Assembly (NCBI GenBank): GCA_001899395.1
Contig: MOYD01000024.1
Span: 436 to 64,435, forward strand
Origin: Candidatus Gastranaerophilales bacterium Zag_111
Lineage (GTDB): Bacteria; Cyanobacteriota; Vampirovibrionia; Gastranaerophilales; Gastranaerophilaceae
Reading direction: 5' to 3'
Length of the DNA: 64,000 nt
The translations under genes and the position numbers were made by a program. This document shows, one piece after another, positions 51,517 through 64,000 of the stretch. The notes below the pieces were generated by a model. That model saw only the letters and a list, made by a program, of their open reading frames with translations. It was not told the DNA's origin and made no database searches. Within the stretch, counting starts at the first letter, position 1. The number at the start of each line of letters is the position of its first letter.

Positions 51517-54500
51517 ATGGCACAAAACCTTTTTGAAAAATACGGCATTAAGGAAGTTGCTGATGTGTGGCTTTCTCGTATTGAACGGAAAGAAGAAACT
51601 TATGAATCTCAAAGAAAGATTCCTGTATCTTCTATTCTAAAAAGCGCATTGACCTTAGAGACTGTTTATCCTCTTGATACAGATGGTAAGGGTGCAGATG
51701 AGGGCTATGAAGCTTATGTGTTTAAGGATGCCGATGTGCTGACTCATTATAATTATGATTGTGATGATGAAGTTACGGTTATTGGTAAGGGTTATGTTCT
51801 TGATGTTCCAGGCGAGGAACCAGAAGCTCAAACTGATGCTGATACTGGTGAAGTAATTAGTGATTATCCTACTAAAGCTGAAAGCTATTATTCAGACTCA
51901 GATGCTTTTACAGAAGCTTATACCAATAGTATTTTGACAATTAATTCTGCTTATGATAAAAATTCATTAAGAAATATTCTTTCTTCTGTTAAAGCTTACT
52001 TAGCTGGTACAGATTATGAAATCAGTGAAGTTACAATTTCAGATGTTACGATTTCTAATAGTTATAATACTTCTAGTACTTTAGATGGTAATGCTAGTGT
52101 AGATGGATCAACTTTAATTACTTATGTATCATATCTAAAGTCCGCATATAGTGATGCTACAACTTTAGACACTCAGGGGAATGAAGTTTCTTATCCCCCA
52201 GAAATCTATTTTACGGTTGCAAAATCTGATGCTTACAACTGGGTAGCAGTAAGAGCTGCTATTGCAGAGTATCTATTATCTATTGACGCAAGCGAAGGTT
52301 ATGGTATCGATATTGATGAAACGGACGTTTATGGAATTTATACTGTTCCTAAATCTACAACTGAAGAATCTACTTCTACAGCCCTGACAACTGTTGATGT
52401 TTCAGCTATTAATATTGATTTTACCTATACAGACGGCGATGGTAATTCAATTAGTGTGAATTTGTCATATAGTGATGAAGAATATCTATCGGTTGCTTTG
52501 CCTACAAGTGTTGTAGAATATTTGACTGGTGCATCAGCTACTGAACCTGATGCAGAAGATGTTGTTGCGGCACTAGAAATTCTTTATAATACAGATGGTG
52601 TTACAGTAACTCCTGAGGATGTGACAGATTCAGAAAATTAGACACTTTCAGAAGATTACGAAGATGGCGATGAACTATCGATTGATTTTTCATATATAGA
52701 AGGCTTTAATTATACTATCGTTCCTATGGATGATGATAGCTATGAAAGTGGTACTTTTATCCTTACTATCGTTCTATATCCGATTTATAGCTTTAATTAT
52801 GAGATTGTTTTTGCGTCTGCCGAAGAAGCTCTTACGGGTATTTTTGATGTAACTACTGAATCACCTGATAACGCAACTGGAAATACAGGTCATTACGTAA
52901 CCGATCCAGATTATGCAGATCAAGGTACTCATGAATTCACCTATGCAGAACAAGTTTGCTTAATCTTTGCAAAAGCACAGAATCTAATTACTAAACGTGG
53001 TACTCGTTATCAGTTTACCGATGCAAACACCACCTTTAGTGACATTGAATTCAGTGATGAATTTGCAGCGGCACCTAACTCTTCAGAAAGAGTTGTGGTT
53101 GCTGGTTTAGCAGATAAAATTTCTGAAAATCTATATGATTTGGATGAAATTAATGAATACATTAAAACTCAACTAACTGATACAATTGATGCGAAAGCTT
53201 ATGATATTGTATATACCGATTATGCAGAGCTTGTTGTTGAGGATGAGATGGGTTACTATTTACCACAGCAACTTGGTACTTACAATAGAACAACTAAGAA
53301 AATGGAATTCTTTGGTGATGGCGGCTATACTGCATATGCAACTGCACTAAAGGGTGTAGATATTGGTATTAGTACGGCAGTTAGTACTTGGGGTAATGAT
53401 AAGCATTATAGTATTAATGACGCAATTGACGCTTTGAAGCAAGAAAAACGAGTTATCGATGGCGAAGTTGATCTTGGTACTGTTGGATTTGAAAGAATCT
53501 TTGGCGGCTACAAGGTACTTGGTGCTGATGATGGCGAGAAAGAAAAAGCTGGTCTACCATTCAATGATGGACAGGGCGTTTATGGATACGAAGTTAATGG
53601 CGAAGCAGTAACAAGTGTAATTGATGATTCTGCTGTATATAGCGGTTATCCTCTTGATTCTGTACTAGAAGCAATTGCATCTATGGAATCTCAGATTGAG
53701 GGGGCGCACTTACGTGTTAATAATGACTTCTTAATTCAGTCCAATAGAGCAATTTACGTTGATGCAGCATCTGCTTCTACATCTGCGCGCGCTCATATTT
53801 ACTTGCTAAGAAATATCAATGCTAAGAAACTTACATCTGATTCTGCTGGTATTTTCGAATTCTATGATAAGAAGGGCAATAAGCTTCATTATCAAGATAG
53901 AATCTTTGCTGGCACAGAATATCTAGCACTTGTTACCATTGGTCAGTCTGGTCTAATCTTTGTTGTTGAAAGACACGGAACAAAGAATATTGATAAGATC
54001 GCTTGGATGGTAAGTGACGGTGGCTTCTTAACAAATAAACAAGCTGAGAAGATTGTTGCTAATGGTCTAATCCATACAGTAGATGTTACAGTATGTGACG
54101 AATCCTTTGATGCAACTTGCACAGTAGGTTCTATCAAGATTCGTAAGACCAAGAAGAGCGTTCTTCACTATGTTCCAGTTCTTTATTTAGATACTCTTAA
54201 GGTTAGTACAATTGAGCAAGCCGCTGAAACAGTAGATGCTACTGGTGGTCGTGGCAATGCTAAACTAATTACTTGGGACTTCAGTAAAGAAATCACACTA
54301 TCTATTGAAGATGCATTATTTACACCAGCATCTATGGCTGCTATTTGGGGCGGCGAACATGGTGATGTTAAGAATGGCGTTAAGGATACACATCACATTG
54401 ATAGAATGGAAAAGATCACTGCTAAGAGAAGCTTCATTGTACCAGCAGGTAATAGCCTAGGTACTCCTACTGAAGGCGATATTACTGCTCAGGCTGTTTA

Positions 54501-55565
54501 CTATGATCCTCAGACAATGGAACCATTCCAAGATGGTACTCCAATTGCAGAGGGCGAAGTGATTTATAAGTTTACACGTTCTGTAGCTTATGATGATAAT
54601 AGTATTGGTAATACAATTGAAATTTCTGCGGAGAAATTCCCTGGTACTTATCGTGTAGTAGGCGAGACTTATGTACGTGATAAGAAGACTGGTGAAGATC
54701 AGAGATTCCAGTTCGTTATTCCAGAGGCTAAACATTTGGTCGCTTAAGTGGAAACATTTAAGGCAATAATTAATTAATTGCTGGGAAAACTTAGGTCAAA
54801 TAAACCACAACGCAGTCAGGAATGGCATTCGTGAAGGTTTGAAAATTATTTGATAGTAGAGTTAATCAGCAGCGCGGCGACAGCAATCGCAACGTTCAAC
54901 GACTATTCCGAGAGGAAGTAGAGGTTAAGTAATCTCGAAATATTAAATACCTGAAAAGGTAAAGATATAGTCTTATCATTTGCGGTGACGCAAAGTTCTA
55001 GACAAAGTAATACGAATACTTTGAAAAAATAAATGAAAATGTCAGCAGAAGATACATCCATTACGCTTGAAGCGGATGGAGATCCAGTCGTAAACAGTAA
55101 AATCAAATGCGACTGTAAAATTGCTTAATTGCTGGGAACTCCTTAGAGCTAATAAAACTACAACATAATCTGAAAAGATAAGTGTGAATGTTAAAAATTT
55201 ATTAGATTGGACAATCAGCAGCGTAGTACCTTAAAGGGTAAACGTTCAACGACTATTCCGTAAGGAAGTAGAAGTTAAATAACTTCGATGTGACAATTAC
55301 TGAAAAGTAAAGATATAGTCTGAACTTCTATTGAAAGATAGAGATATAACAAAATTGGTTTGACTTTACAATGGATGTCCTTCGTCCAGACGATGGCGTA
55401 ATGATGAAGTTCATTCAGTTTGATACAGTAGAAAACGAAGAAGAGAACGATGGTTCTACAATGGTTAAGGATACTGAAAACCTCAACCTACTTGACGATG
55501 CAGAAATGTATAAGATTAGTAGTGATACAGAGGAAGACCTAGCTATTGGTGCTACTGAATATTAA
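51517..55565 (+). CDS. Structural paralog 1 (1158 aa), exons 51517..54729, 55036..55091, 55358..55565, 1 in-frame TAG
   Basis: N-terminal MAQNLFEKYGIKEVADV plus VLYLDTLKVST..LITWDFSKEITLSIEDAL. C-terminal GETYVRDKKTGEDQRFQF..ITLEADGDP..GVMMKF is restored only after removing two introns. Confidence 0.7.
54730..55035 (+). ncRNA. Group I intron (paralog-1 intron 1, ORF-less)
   Basis: Core TTGCTGGGAAAA..AATCAGCAGCG..GTTCAACGACTATTCCG..GGAAGTAG..GATATAGTC. Starts AAACA like intron 2. Boundaries come from frame and paralog alignment. P1 is weak, so allow a few nt of error. Confidence 0.65.
55092..55357 (+). ncRNA. Group I intron (paralog-1 intron 2, ORF-less)
   Basis: P1 CAGTCGT/GCGACTG with U-G at the splice site. 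P10 GTTTGA/TCAAAT. Same core as intron 1. Terminal G at 55357. Frame restored. Confidence 0.8.
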
Positions 55566-55668
55566 TAGATATAAAATAAGGTAAAATGGTAAGTTGCAGC
55601 CATTGGCGATCTAATGGTCCAATGGCTGCTTTTACTTATCATAATTAAATACGGAGGTGAATGGAATA

Positions 55669-62173: not shown

Positions 62174-62186
62174 GGAGGTGAAAGAG

Positions 62187-64000
62187 TTGAATTTATTTGA
62201 AAAATATGGTATTAAGGAAGTTGCTGATGTTGTGTTCTATTCAATGAATTAGGTTGGCGATGATGAGATTGTTTATACTCCTGTTCTTTACTTAGATACA
62301 TTAAAAGTTTCCATTTATGAAAAAACTGCTGAGAGTGTTTTTGCTACTGGTGGTTTAAAGAATAAGAATTTGATTAAGTGGAATTTTGGAAAATCAGTTC
62401 AATTGACATTAGAAGATGCGTTGTTCTCGCCAGCGTCTATGAGTATGATATGGGGCGGCAAGTTAGATAGTACTTTTAGTGATGCAACTTCTTTAGTAGC
62501 AAAAATTAATTATGCAAATGTATATGGTAGATTGAGGTATTCTACTAAAGCTTATCCTTCGCCGCAATTAACTAATGATGAATGGAATATTGTATTTAAA
62601 ATTATTCAAAATAAGCTTGAAGGAACTACTTTGGATATTTTAGATAATGATGTTGCTAATACATTAGATGATGATTTGAAAACTGCTTTTATTAATAGAT
62701 ATTATGATAGACCTGTTCTATTTGATGGTGTCAATGATGTTGGCAGTGATACTGGGAAAAATGACTTATCTCAACCTTGGACTTATACCTACGACTTAGA
62801 GAATTTTGGTACTTACTTTGGCGCCAATTACTTAAGTGTTTCACAATTGAATTTAGAAGGGTATGAGAATATAAATGATCATTATGACGATAATGGCGTG
62901 CTTAAAGTTGGACATTATCGGTGGTATTCAGCTAAAGCAATGCCTGAGTATGTTATTTATATTATTAGAAATTCACTGAAAGAATTGAGTGATATTGGTA
63001 ATATAAAAACTAATATTGGTGAAGTTGAAGTTGTAGATAGAATGGAAAAGTGTTTGGTAACTAAGAGAGATGGATTTAAAATTAGTACTAAAGAACAGCT
63101 TGATAATCTATTTAGATATTATGCGGATGATAGAAGTGAAACTTATAGTATTTATTATGATGCTAAAACTATGTTACCACTGCTTCATATTGAGGATGAT
63201 GAAATTTAGGGATATAATTTAGAGAAGTTTTGGGAAACATCAACTTTGGTAAGTGAAAATAGGTATGATTATGGTAATTATTAGGAACTAGACGTTTATA
63301 GTTCTTATTCAAAATTATACTAGTACTTATTATATTTAATTTCAACATGGGATTCATCATCTCTTGGAGATAGTTCTTCAAAGGGTTATACAGTAACATT
63401 TTCTTTAGATAATGTTTATACTTATACTTTAGCATCTGCTTCGAGTGGAATTAATATTTCGTAGAATTCTATTTTGGATTATGAAGTTTTATATGAGATA
63501 TTAGCTTCAATAGCAACAAATCGTGTTTTAACAAAAGAGCCAGATTATTATTTGCCACGTAGTGTCAGCTTGCTTTTGAATTATAGTACTGAAAATGGAT
63601 GGTCAGCATTTGTTAGAGCAATTGGTTTACGAGAAAACGATTTTTCTTGGATGAATGATATTTTCAAAATCAAATTCGGTACTGTCTATTACAAATGGAC
63701 ACGAACTGTAAAGTATCAAGAATACGAAGATGATGCGGTTCTTGGTTCTTGCTTTACAATTGATGCGGATACATTCCCAGATGATTATAAAATAGTTGGA
63801 GAAACCTACATACGAAATCAAAAAACAGGTAAAGACCAGCGATATCAAATCACAATTTTTAAAGCAAATGTATCATCAGATACTTCAATAACTTTATAGG
63901 CAGACGGAGATCCAACGACATTCTCTATGACAATAGATGTGTTGGTTCCAGAGAATGACATAATGATGGAGATGATTCAACTAGACACAGAAGAAGATCG
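62187..64000 (+). CDS. Structural paralog 5 (3' end outside window), 6 in-frame TAG so far
   Basis: TTG start after GGAGGTG. LNLFEKYGIKEVADV..GETYIRNQKTGKDQRYQ..ITL(TAG)ADGDPTTF. Confidence 0.65.

What the first reader, a model, noticed from the sequence alone, without database searches (positions are those of the whole stretch)
51517..64000. Five or more tandem structural paralogs with conserved N- and C-terminal modules and unrelated central inserts
All five share the following:
- An N-terminal module: N(L/I)F..YGIKEVADV..Y...PVLYLDTLKVS..E.TAE...A.GG.GN..LI.W(D/N)F.KE(I/V)...LEDAL.(S/T)PAS...WGG.
- A DRMEKC-like box.
- A C-terminal module: YKWTRT...FP..Y(R/K)(I/L)VGETY.R...TG.DQR.Q......L.ADGDP.TF...VMM.

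The middle ranges from about 300 to more than 800 aa and is mostly unrelated, although paralogs 4 and 5 share a YGRL.YSTKAYPSPQL segment. In paralog 1 a ~480-aa insert even splits the N-module.

A conserved core formed by both termini, with swapped surface domains, resembles sheath, tube or flagellin-type building blocks. It suggests a heteromeric or alternative-subunit tail or fibre structure. I could not match the family to a known protein from memory.
Basis: partly seen in the sequence, partly recalled or inferred. Interest (0 to 1): 0.6.

Follow-up and report, generated by a model that had tools for sequence, protein, structure and literature searches.

The report
Five decorated tail-tube protein paralogs
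The end of this window encodes five tandem copies of a phage tail-tube protein, each carrying different very large surface domains. A four- or five-gene array of this kind is conserved in dozens of uncultured, stop-codon-recoded gut phages, which suggests a tail tube built from several subunit types rather than the usual one.

Summary

**What the genes are**
- Five co-oriented genes lie at 51517 to beyond 64000.
- They share the N- and C-terminal halves of the tube-forming domain D1 of the SPbeta/SPR-type siphovirus tail tube protein.
- This family is Pfam PF27173 YomU_Tube and PHROG 2729, with solved structures 8K98, 8XKN and 9JGH.
- The "unrelated middles" sit where that protein carries its protruding decoration domain D2.

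- The genes are intact only if TAG is read as Gln.
- Two group I introns interrupt the C-module of paralog 1. Their junctions are confirmed by intron-less orthologues and by spliced contigs in an RNA library.
- The insert that splits the N-module of paralog 1 is about 850 aa, not about 480 aa.

**What relatives show**
- 47 related loci from IMG/VR and GTDB genomes carry four such genes in the same order. The window and one relative carry five.
- The genes fall into four position-specific clades. Paralogs 4 and 5 of the window are a recent duplicate of the fourth.
- Relatives from cultured hosts carry a single copy of about 250 aa.
- Position-3 orthologues in close relatives carry a dockerin in the insert.

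**Interpretation**
- Most likely all paralogs co-assemble into a mosaic, heavily ornamented tail tube whose domains act as adhesins. This is inferred, not shown.
- I found no published precedent.
- Verdict: a new variant of a known kind.

The parts
51517..54729 (+). Paralog 1 (group A), exon 1. It holds the beta1 strand (NLFEKYGIKEVADV), then an insert of about 850 aa, then the rest of the N-module from about 54124, a short D2 stem with the DRMEKI box, and the first part of the C-module up to ...VIPEA.
   Evidence: Translation with TAG read as Gln. HMM hits N51526, N54124 and C54541. The database gene call P0121 (1076 aa) carries PF27173. The start at 51517 matches the orthologue consensus MAQNLFEKYG. 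A Shine-Dalgarno site AAGGAGG lies upstream.
54730..55035 (+). Group I intron 1 (306 nt) in the C-module of paralog 1. It has no ORF.
   Evidence: Rfam RF00028 scores 69.3 bits against a gathering score of 50, at 54720-54995. The 5' exon ends in T54729 and the intron ends in G55035. An RNA-library contig joins 54729 to 55036, and a 333-nt contig is a circular permutation of the intron. Intron-less orthologues read ...IPEAKMSAE....
55036..55091 (+). Paralog 1, exon 2 (56 nt), encoding KMSAEDTSITLEADGDPV(V).
   Evidence: Homology to the C-modules of paralogs 2-5. Joints on both sides in run X5.
55092..55357 (+). Group I intron 2 (266 nt) in the C-module of paralog 1. It has no ORF.
   Evidence: Rfam RF00028 scores 66.0 bits against a gathering score of 50, at 55052-55343. 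An RNA-library contig joins 55091 to 55358. The orthologue consensus reads ...GDPVVFSFTMDVLRP....
55358..55565 (+). Paralog 1, exon 3. It holds the end of the C-module (FDFTMDVLRPDDGVMMKFIQFD) and an acidic tail, with stop TAA at 55563-55565. The spliced product is about 1158 aa.
   Evidence: HMM hit C55359.
55669..57837 (+). Paralog 2 (group B), 722 aa. The order is N-module, SRMEKC box directly after it, an insert of about 450 aa, then the C-module. It has 1 in-frame TAG.
   Evidence: HMM hits N55669 (154 bits) and C57442 (171 bits). phrog_2729 at E = 1.8e-32. Shine-Dalgarno site GGAGGTG.
57853..59976 (+). Paralog 3 (group C), 707 aa. The order is N-module, an insert of about 300 aa, DRIEKC box, C-module, then a Ser/Thr-rich C-terminal extension of about 140 aa. 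It has 5 in-frame TAG.
   Evidence: The protein is database entry P0001 and carries PF27173. phrog_2729 at E = 2.5e-33. AF2 model. The top Foldseek hits in the PDB are SPR tail tube protein.
59990..62173 (+). Paralog 4 (group D, copy 1), 727 aa. It has inserts both before and after the DRFEKC box, and 8 in-frame TAG.
   Evidence: phrog_2729 at E = 2.1e-39. It lies in clade D together with paralog 5.
62187..64000 (+). Paralog 5 (group D, copy 2). It has a TTG start, more than 604 aa, and is cut by the window end just after the C-module. It has 6 in-frame TAG.
   Evidence: HMM hits N62187 (157 bits) and C63666 (172 bits). Shine-Dalgarno site AAGGAGGTG.

Best explanation
The five genes are paralogous major tail (tube) proteins of an uncultured SPbeta-like siphovirus. 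Its relatives have genomes of about 135-190 kb, and it reads TAG as glutamine in its late genes.

**Anatomy**
- Each protein keeps the tube-forming D1 beta-sandwich, which is split into an N-terminal and a C-terminal half.
- At the site where the SPR tube protein carries its small Ig-like decoration D2, each has a different domain of 200-650 aa. In paralog 1 the large insert (about 850 aa) instead follows strand beta1.

**Expression**
- The genes form one tightly packed late operon, each with its own strong ribosome-binding site.
- The mRNA of paralog 1 must first lose two self-splicing group I introns.

**Proposed mechanism (inferred)**
- All four ancient paralog types (A-D, with D duplicated in this window) polymerise through their conserved D1 interfaces into one tail tube.
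- The resulting tube is a mosaic, heavily ornamented ("hairy") tail.
- The protruding domains act as reversible adhesins for the host surface or its surroundings.
- In close relatives the position-3 subunit displays a dockerin. A dockerin would plug into cohesins of cellulosome- or amylosome-type scaffolds on Oscillospirales hosts.
For: **Shown: family identity**
- PF27173 YomU_Tube is on record for the window's own paralog 3 and paralog 1, and for all five genes of relative L003.
- phrog_2729 matches paralogs 2-4 at E = 2e-33 to 2e-39, in two stretches covering profile positions 4-98 and 166-250.
- tblastn finds the single-copy "major tail protein" of Tsamsa-like, Lactococcus 949-group and Sundance phages. 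That gene sits between the tail-completion genes and the tape measure gene.
- A profile of single-copy relatives hits the solved SPR tail tube protein at E = 4e-9.
- The top 11 Foldseek PDB hits of the paralog 3 model are SPR tail tube protein, although weakly.

**Shown: position of the inserts**
- In SPR, D1 consists of the N and C parts, and D2 is an inserted decoration that protrudes from the tube (PMC11850899).
- The inserts begin after the WGG motif, which corresponds to about SPR residue 78.

**Shown: genomic context**
- A sigma factor, terminase, portal and a YonB-type capsid protein lie upstream.

**Shown: conservation in relatives**
- 47 loci carry 4 paralogs and 2 carry 5, always in the same order.
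- A neighbour-joining tree of the cores gives four position-specific monophyletic clades. Paralogs 4 and 5 of the window both fall in clade D.
- 27 core columns are identical in all four groups.

**Shown: expression signals**
- Shine-Dalgarno sites precede every start, and the gaps between paralogs 2-5 are 13-15 nt.
- RNA-library contigs cover all five genes and show the spliced junctions.

**Shown: variability of the inserts**
- Insert length varies 195-996 aa among orthologues.
- The family has about 1,100 clusters at 50% identity, with lengths of 147-1183 aa among the best 150.
- A dockerin (PF00404, E = 1e-11) sits inside the insert of position-3 orthologues.
Against: - There are no virion proteomics or imaging data. 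Co-assembly, stoichiometry and order are therefore inferred.
- AF2 models the N-module poorly (pLDDT 30-50) and fails on paralog 1 (pLDDT 42). The outward orientation of the inserts rests on analogy with SPR D2.
- None of the window's own inserts matches any Pfam, NCBIfam or PDB profile. The adhesin role is extrapolated from the dockerin in orthologues and from insert variability.
- Each group has its own conserved core signature. That could equally mean separate assemblies or fixed positions along the tail.
- About half of the group A insert is highly conserved rather than variable. This fits a structural role better than an adhesin role.
Confidence: 0.55

Rival explanations
1. Division of labour along the tail. 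One paralog builds the bulk of the tube. The others form a few specialised rings, for example next to the neck, next to the tip or at fixed intervals, or a collar- or sheath-like outer layer. The tail is then segmented rather than mosaic.
For: - The four groups are anciently diverged. Core identity between paralogs is 39-57%, against 56-91% between orthologues, and each group has its own conserved signature.
- Group A is structurally distinct. It has a minimal D2 of about 64 aa, a large insert after beta1, and a strongly conserved block of about 430 aa.
- Siphovirus tails are known to use diverged tube-fold proteins at their ends, such as the terminator and the distal tail protein (general knowledge).
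- A further, distant tube-like gene follows the array even in single-copy relatives.
Against: - All groups keep the same conserved strands and the GGxGN hairpin.
- All genes have similar ribosome-binding sites and similar RNA-contig depth of 2-7. No single gene stands out as the obvious major subunit.
- Known terminal tube-fold proteins are far more diverged than these paralogs.
Confidence: 0.3
2. Alternative, interchangeable tube subunits. Any one paralog suffices for a tube, and the set is a bet-hedging repertoire that yields virions with different decorations for different hosts or surfaces.
For: - Inserts are swapped between orthologues, for example a dockerin against an unrelated domain at position 3.
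- The D gene was duplicated again in this lineage.
- Single-copy relatives show that one subunit is enough to build a tube.
Against: - No switch is visible. There are no invertible segments, no recombinase next to the array, no diversity-generating retroelement (DGR)-type template and variable repeats, and no excess of internal promoters or terminators.
- All four groups are retained, intact and in the same order in about 50 divergent loci. Redundant genes would be lost sporadically.
Confidence: 0.1
3. Counter-defence. Bacterial sensors such as DSR2 are triggered by the monomeric D1 domain of the SPR tube protein. Multiple diverged D1 copies with bulky inserts might therefore evade or titrate such sensors.
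For: DSR2 captures the whole D1 domain of the SPR tail tube protein and ignores D2 (PMC11850899). The window proteins belong to that family.
Against: - This reading is purely analogical. No defence or anti-defence gene was examined here.
- It does not explain four conserved orthologous groups, or the dockerin.
Confidence: 0.03
4. Decaying duplicates, or an assembly artefact in which strain variants were collapsed into a tandem array.
For: Under the standard code the genes look fragmented.
Against: - The frames are intact under code 15, with 1-8 TAG and no TAA or TGA across about 2.1 kb each.
- 29 TAG codons fall in one column that is Gln in 163 of 170 sense cases.
- The same array appears in dozens of independent assemblies.
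- The positional clades are monophyletic.
Confidence: 0.02

Closest known systems
Tail tube protein of Bacillus phages SPR and SPbeta (YomU; Pfam PF27173; PDB 8K98, 8XKN, 8YGM, 9JGH)
   Same: - Same family by profile.
- Same architecture: a D1 tube domain made of N- and C-terminal parts, with a decoration domain inserted after about residue 78 (PMC11850899).
- Same place in the morphogenesis module.
   Different: - SPR has one gene of 264 aa with an Ig-like D2 of about 80 aa.
- This window has five genes of 700 to about 1160 aa, with inserts of 200-850 aa of unknown fold.
- One of the five also has an insert after beta1 and two introns.
- All five are TAG-recoded.
Major tail proteins of Tsamsa-like Bacillus phages, Lactococcus 949-group phages and Brevibacillus phage Sundance (PHROG 2729)
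   Same: - They are the closest annotated relatives, with 45-51% identity over the N-module.
- Gene order is the same: capsid genes, head closure, tail completion, major tail protein, tape measure.
   Different: They are single-copy, about 247-251 aa, use the standard code and have no large inserts.
SPP1 gp17.1 and gp17.1*, and lambda gpV (from my own knowledge, not checked here)
   Same: These siphovirus tubes display an extra Ig/FN3-like domain on the outside. SPP1 mixes two subunit forms in one tube.
   Different: The two SPP1 forms come from one gene by frameshifting and differ only by a small C-terminal domain. They are not 4-5 separate anciently diverged genes with very large internal inserts.
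T5 pb6 and Thermus phage P74-26 tail tube protein (from my own knowledge; PMC10034513 appeared)
   Same: The tube-protein gene has been duplicated during evolution.
   Different: In those phages the two copies are fused into one polypeptide that forms trimeric rings. Here the copies stay as separate genes with distinct decorations.

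Membership tests
SPbeta/SPR-type siphovirus tail tube protein (Pfam PF27173 YomU_Tube; PHROG 2729) | Significant match to the family profile | tested here: met
   PF27173 is precomputed for the window's own paralog 3 (P0001) and paralog 1 (P0121), and for all five array genes of L003. 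phrog_2729 matches paralogs 2-4 at E = 2e-33 to 2e-39. The local Pfam copy lacks this model, so searches found nothing.
SPbeta/SPR-type siphovirus tail tube protein (Pfam PF27173 YomU_Tube; PHROG 2729) | Sequence homology to the experimentally solved SPR tube protein | tested here: met
   A profile of seven single-copy relatives (49-64% identical to the window N-modules) hits 8k98_A and 9jgh_A at E = 4e-9, covering residues 17-235 of 264. Direct phmmer searches with paralog 3, the Tsamsa protein or the Sundance protein alone found nothing.
SPbeta/SPR-type siphovirus tail tube protein (Pfam PF27173 YomU_Tube; PHROG 2729) | Tube-protein fold of the core (beta-sandwich with long hairpins) | tested here: inconclusive
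   In the AF2 model of paralog 3 the N-module has pLDDT 30-50. Ten of the top 11 Foldseek PDB hits, and rank 36, are SPR tube protein. However, E is only 5e-3 to 0.3 and the TM-score is low.
SPbeta/SPR-type siphovirus tail tube protein (Pfam PF27173 YomU_Tube; PHROG 2729) | D1 split by a decoration domain (D2) inserted between its N and C parts | tested here: met
   The alignments place the inserts after WGG, about SPR residue 78. The conserved DRMEKC and YYKWTRT strands align with the D2 stem of single-copy relatives. The domain description comes from PMC11850899.
SPbeta/SPR-type siphovirus tail tube protein (Pfam PF27173 YomU_Tube; PHROG 2729) | Gene lies in the tail module, after the capsid and head-completion genes and before the tape measure gene, with no sheath gene | tested here: met
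   In the window, portal, a YonB-type capsid protein, YomW-like and phrog_4051 genes lie upstream. In relative L003 a tape measure gene (PF10145) lies downstream. The order is the same in Thrax4 and Sundance.
SPbeta/SPR-type siphovirus tail tube protein (Pfam PF27173 YomU_Tube; PHROG 2729) | Polymerises into stacked hexameric rings | not testable with these tools
   This needs expression and electron microscopy.
Group I self-splicing intron (Rfam RF00028) | Covariance-model score above the gathering threshold | tested here: met
   Scores are 69.3 and 66.0 bits against a threshold of 50, over the full model length.
Group I self-splicing intron (Rfam RF00028) | The 5' exon ends in U, the intron ends in G, and excision restores the reading frame | tested here: met
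   The boundaries are T54729 with G55035, and T55091 with G55357. The spliced product equals the intron-less orthologue consensus. An RNA-library run shows joints at exactly 54729 to 55036 and 55091 to 55358, plus a circularised intron 1.
TAG-to-Gln recoded phage (genetic code 15) | In-frame TAG in conserved genes, aligned with Gln | tested here: met
   There are 22 in-frame TAG in the five genes and no other stops. 29 TAG fall in a column that is Gln in 163 of 170 sense cases. TAG is confined to the late genes from about 38 kb onward.
TAG-to-Gln recoded phage (genetic code 15) | Phage-encoded suppressor tRNA(CUA) | tested here: not met
   None of the six tRNAs in the window has a CUA anticodon. 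The rest of the genome was not available, so this does not exclude one elsewhere.
   There are no such hits in PHROGs, Pfam or NCBIfam. The modules are beta-rich and match the tube protein instead.
Dockerin-bearing (cellulosome-type) protein | Dockerin type I domain (PF00404) | tested here: not met
   The domain is absent from all five window paralogs. It is present inside the insert of position-3 orthologues P0070 and P0112, and in L004 and L005.

The most novel reading that the evidence does not exclude
A siphovirus tail tube that is obligately hetero-oligomeric. Four anciently diverged tube proteins would assemble in a defined register, as mixed rings or as a repeating stack of different rings. 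The tail would then be a long multivalent scaffold displaying at least four kinds of large binding domains. In some lineages these include a dockerin that plugs the whole tail into the host's cohesin scaffolds. The tube itself would become a host-recognition organ, not just a conduit.
Probability: 0.3. Interest if true: 0.8.

Novelty: new variant of a known kind. Interest (0 to 1): 0.62.

Why it matters
- Tail tubes of long-tailed phages are the textbook case of a homopolymer built from one major tail protein. A widespread gut-phage lineage that keeps four or five distinct tube genes, each with domains several times larger than the tube core, would change that picture.
- It points to the tail shaft as a large, modular adhesion surface. 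This matters for how these abundant, uncultured, recoded phages find Clostridia hosts.
- The dockerin in orthologues gives a concrete, testable host-surface ligand.
- The tube core of this family is also the trigger of the DSR2 defence system, so diversification of the core may bear on immune evasion.
- In practice, the locus shows how code-15 recoding plus introns hides large structural genes from standard annotation.

Tried and rejected
**Searches that found nothing useful**
- The local Pfam-A and NCBIfam libraries gave no hit for any of the five paralogs. The local Pfam copy lacks PF27173.
- phmmer of paralog 3, the Thrax4 major tail protein and the Sundance protein against PDB sequences found nothing relevant. 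Only the profile worked.
- Profiles of group C (A2) and group A (A4) against the PDB gave only noise, such as AcrF2 at E = 0.09 and a protocadherin at E = 0.75.
- A search for homologues of the paralog 1 insert outside tube proteins gave 182 hits. All but one of the 120 listed are group-A tube proteins with PF27173, and none shows another protein context.

**Structure prediction**
- AF2 of paralog 1 with 90 orthologues gave mean pLDDT 42. I judged it unusable and did not send it to Foldseek.
- AF2 of paralog 3 gave usable insert domains, but they had no significant structural neighbours. BFVD returned only uncharacterised relatives.

**Explanations considered and dropped**
- The window initially looked crAss-like, because of TAG recoding and introns. 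I dropped this once tblastn and synteny pointed to SPbeta/Tsamsa-like siphoviruses.
- Diversity-generating retroelements or other repeat-based variation: there are no template-and-variable-type repeats touching the array.
- Internal promoters or terminators: their counts equal the shuffled expectation.

**Literature**
- Searches for YomU, for multiple tube or major tail protein paralogs, and for dockerin on phage tails found no description of such arrays.

Full report
**Observation**

Under the standard code the region 51.5-64 kb is a string of fragments of 100-670 aa. Marking the three stop codons separately shows that long frames continue through TAG but never through TAA or TGA. With TAG read as Gln the region resolves into five co-oriented genes:
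- paralog 1: 51517-55565, in three exons;
- paralog 2: 55669-57837;
- paralog 3: 57853-59976;
- paralog 4: 59990-62173;
- paralog 5: 62187 to beyond 64000.

All five share the N-module (NLFxxYGIKEVADV ... PVLYLDTLKVS ... GGxGN ... W(D/N)F ... EDAL ... WGG), a DRMEKC-like box and the C-module (YYKWTRT ... FPGxY(R/K)(I/L)VGETY ... TGxDQRxQ ... LxADGDPxTF ... MM).

The similarity is far beyond chance:
- Pairwise BLASTP of the modules gives E = 1e-21 to 4e-52.
- Module HMMs score 149-183 bits.
- A 5-copy, 165-nt DNA repeat family has 2.1-2.2 kb spacing.

The middles are unrelated, except that paralogs 4 and 5 share a segment.

1. *TAG is a sense codon.*
   - The five genes hold 2, 1, 5, 8 and 6 in-frame TAGs.
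   - Across the window and its relatives, 29 TAGs fall in one C-module column that is Gln in 163 of 170 sense-codon cases.
   - In the window, in-frame TAG is confined to genes from about 38 kb onward. The early genes at 0-27 kb have none. This is the pattern described for recoded gut phages (bioRxiv 10.1101/2021.08.26.457843).
   - No suppressor tRNA lies in these 64 kb.
2. *The C-module of paralog 1 is interrupted by two group I introns.*
   - Rfam RF00028 scores 69.3 and 66.0 bits against a gathering score of 50.
   - From homology I placed the boundaries at 54730-55035 and 55092-55357. In each case the 5' exon ends in U and the intron ends in G.
   - Intron-less orthologues read exactly the spliced sequence (consensus of A4).
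   - In the one RNA library that holds a close relative (X5, bat gut metagenome), contigs join 54729 to 55036 and 55091 to 55358. A 333-nt contig is a circular permutation of intron 1 lacking its first two bases, as expected for a circularised excised group I intron.
   - Contig depth in that library is 24-26 over the capsid gene against 2-8 over the tube genes. This argues that it reflects RNA rather than contaminating DNA.

The insert that splits the N-module of paralog 1 is about 850 aa, not about 480 aa.

**What the family is**

- PHROGs places paralogs 2-4 in phrog_2729, "virion structural protein" (E = 2e-33 to 2e-39). The matches fall in two stretches, at positions 4-98 and 166-250 of a 252-position profile.
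- tblastn against annotated phages finds only large Firmicutes siphoviruses: Tsamsa-like Bacillus phages, the Lactococcus 949 group, and Brevibacillus phage Sundance. There the hit is a single gene of about 250 aa, annotated as major tail or tail tube protein. It lies between the tail-completion genes and the tape measure gene.
- The large protein database holds the window's own paralog 3 and paralog 1, and tags them and every homologue with PF27173. A neighbourhood look-up names this model YomU_Tube.
- A profile of seven single-copy relatives hits the solved tail tube protein of Bacillus phage SPR at E = 4e-9 over nearly its whole length.
- The best Foldseek PDB matches of the paralog 3 model are the same SPR structures, though weakly, because the N-module is poorly modelled.
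- Upstream genes are a late sigma factor, terminase, portal, a scaffold-like protein and a YonB-type capsid protein.

This is therefore the tail module of an SPbeta-like siphovirus.

**Anatomy against the solved relative**

In SPR the tube protein consists of D1, a beta-sandwich whose strands come from the N- and C-terminal parts and which forms the hexameric rings and ring-to-ring hairpins. Inserted between those parts is D2, whose stem lies on the tube and whose Ig-like part protrudes (PMC11850899).

- The window's N- and C-modules are D1.
- The inserts start after WGG, which corresponds to about SPR residue 78, where D2 begins.
- The DRMEKC and YYKWTRT strands align with the two stem strands of single-copy relatives.
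- The "swapped middles" therefore replace the protruding part of D2.
- Group A (paralog 1) keeps only a stem of about 64 aa. It carries its large insert after strand beta1 instead.

**Comparative genomics**

A pattern scan of IMG/VR gave 544 confirmed relatives, of which 64 loci were retrieved. A scan of GTDB genomes gave 33 more loci. Counting module hits per locus shows:
- 47 loci carry four paralogs in the same order.
- Two loci, the window and L003, carry five.
- A separate set of loci carries a single gene of about 250-290 aa.

Arrays occur on contigs of up to 186 kb. In GTDB genomes these contigs are binned mostly to Clostridia, Ruminococcus, Fimenecus, Oscillospiraceae, Acutalibacteraceae and Eubacterium, with some obvious binning noise. 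Isolate genomes (Paenibacillus, Thermoactinomyces, Halobacillus) have one copy.

A neighbour-joining tree of 163 non-identical cores gives four monophyletic clades that correspond exactly to positions 1-4. Paralogs 4 and 5 of the window both fall in clade D. Core identity is 39-57% between paralogs of the window, but 56-91% to their orthologues.

The duplications therefore predate the radiation of this phage group, and every copy has been kept intact. This rules out decaying duplicates and assembly artefacts.

**The inserts**

- None of the window's inserts matches Pfam, NCBIfam or PDB profiles.
- Homologues of the paralog 1 insert turned up only as group-A tube proteins. Its N-terminal 80 aa and C-terminal 430 aa or so are strongly conserved, and residues about 100-440 are variable.
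- Insert lengths among orthologues range over 298-644 aa (group B), 195-615 aa (group C) and 196-996 aa (group D).
- An exhaustive search finds 1,119 family clusters at 50% identity. Lengths among the best 150 range from 147 to 1183 aa.
- In the closest relatives by N-module (L004 and L005, 91% identity), the position-3 gene carries a type I dockerin (PF00404, E = 1e-11) inside the insert. The window's paralog 3 has an unrelated domain at that place.
- Paralog 3 also ends in a Ser/Thr-rich extension, seen directly in the sequence.

**How it most likely works**

Shown:
- The five genes are tube-protein paralogs with intact D1 cores.
- They are packed as an operon, each with a Shine-Dalgarno site and with gaps of 13-15 nt between paralogs 2-5.
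- There is no excess of internal promoters or terminators.
- They are transcribed and spliced in a relative.
- They are conserved as four orthologous groups.

Inferred:
- All four types polymerise through the shared D1 interfaces into one tube. 27 core columns are identical in all groups.
- The result is a mosaic tail densely covered with several kinds of large outward-facing domains.
- The dockerin, the length variability and the domain swapping argue that at least some of these domains are adhesins for host-surface structures.

The main rival is that one paralog is the bulk subunit and the others form specialised rings or an outer layer. Group A, with its distinct architecture and conserved insert, is the best candidate for such a role. 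Interchangeable alternative subunits, defence evasion and pseudogenes are less likely, for the reasons given under the rival explanations.

**Novelty**

- The protein family, its split-domain architecture, group I introns in phage late genes and TAG recoding are all known.
- What I could not find described, in eight full-text searches, is a conserved array of four or five separate tail tube genes with very large insertions.
- The closest precedents are the two frameshift forms of SPP1 gp17.1 and the fused duplicated tube domains of T5 pb6 and P74-26. These comparisons come from my own knowledge.
- I therefore rate the finding a new variant of a known kind, of moderate to high interest. The functional model is untested.

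Noticed in passing
window 54730-55035 and 55092-55357: Two small, ORF-less group I introns lie only 56 nt apart in the C-module of paralog 1. An RNA library (X5) shows both spliced junctions and a circularised intron 1. Relatives show presence or absence of introns at this site: 12 of 49 arrays have a split group-A C-module. L019 has an RF00028 hit there, a single-copy relative (L080) also has a split C-module, and further group I introns lie elsewhere in L008, L022 and L080.
   Followed up: partly
window 38294-64000 versus 1-27000: TAG-to-Gln recoding is confined to the late region. The putative late sigma factor gene (38294-39535, phrog_5767) has 14 in-frame TAGs and is preceded by the last copy of the early-promoter repeat (38021-38083). 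Late transcription may therefore itself depend on TAG suppression. No tRNA(CUA) lies in the window.
   Followed up: partly
window 10217-10537 (also tRNAs at 9384, 10138, 10565 and 21437-21761): The phage encodes a tmRNA (Rfam RF00023, 94 bits, full length), flanked by tRNA genes. ARAGORN did not report it.
   Followed up: no
window 2139-28176 and 38021-38083: About 17 copies of a highly conserved promoter-plus-leader of about 60-75 nt (TTGACTTTT ... TATGATATAATATATATAGAAGGTAAGGGAA) precede early genes, all on the + strand. This looks like a host sigma-A-type early promoter family with an extended -10 element.
   Followed up: no
window 34844-35006 and 36259-37351: There is a 13-nt tandem array (TATAGCTCAAAAC-like), and a dense field of TTGAAAAGTTGAAAAC-type iterons spanning about 1 kb. 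Both lie in the low-GC region where GC skew changes sign, which suggests a replication origin.
   Followed up: no
L003 about 16270-19050; L007 about 13417 onward; L051 about 10859 onward (outside the window): Directly downstream of the last tube paralog, every relative encodes a much more diverged tube-like protein (GIKELYD ... GGYHN ... WE.DKE ... GNRLFNGFL.L.GKM). This includes the single-copy relatives. It may be a terminal or initiator tube-fold protein. The window ends before this gene.
   Followed up: partly
L004 3592-3819; L005 10514-10741; proteins P0070 and P0112: A type I dockerin domain is embedded in the decoration insert of the position-3 tube protein of close relatives. This hints at cohesin-bearing (cellulosome- or amylosome-type) Oscillospirales hosts.
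   Followed up: partly
window 40911-43310: The terminase large subunit appears only as a partial match. The ORF at 42087-43310 hits phrog_5909 at profile positions 50-188 of 285, and there is a gap between the ORFs at 40911-41300 and 42087. The gene may be split or highly diverged. No Rfam intron was found there at the gathering threshold.
   Followed up: no
window 29767-32864: Two 300-nt copies (29857-30156 and 32343-32642) are 80% identical. Four copies of a 95-nt element lie in the - strand block between 28 and 38 kb. These are duplicated small genes with their upstream regions.
   Followed up: no
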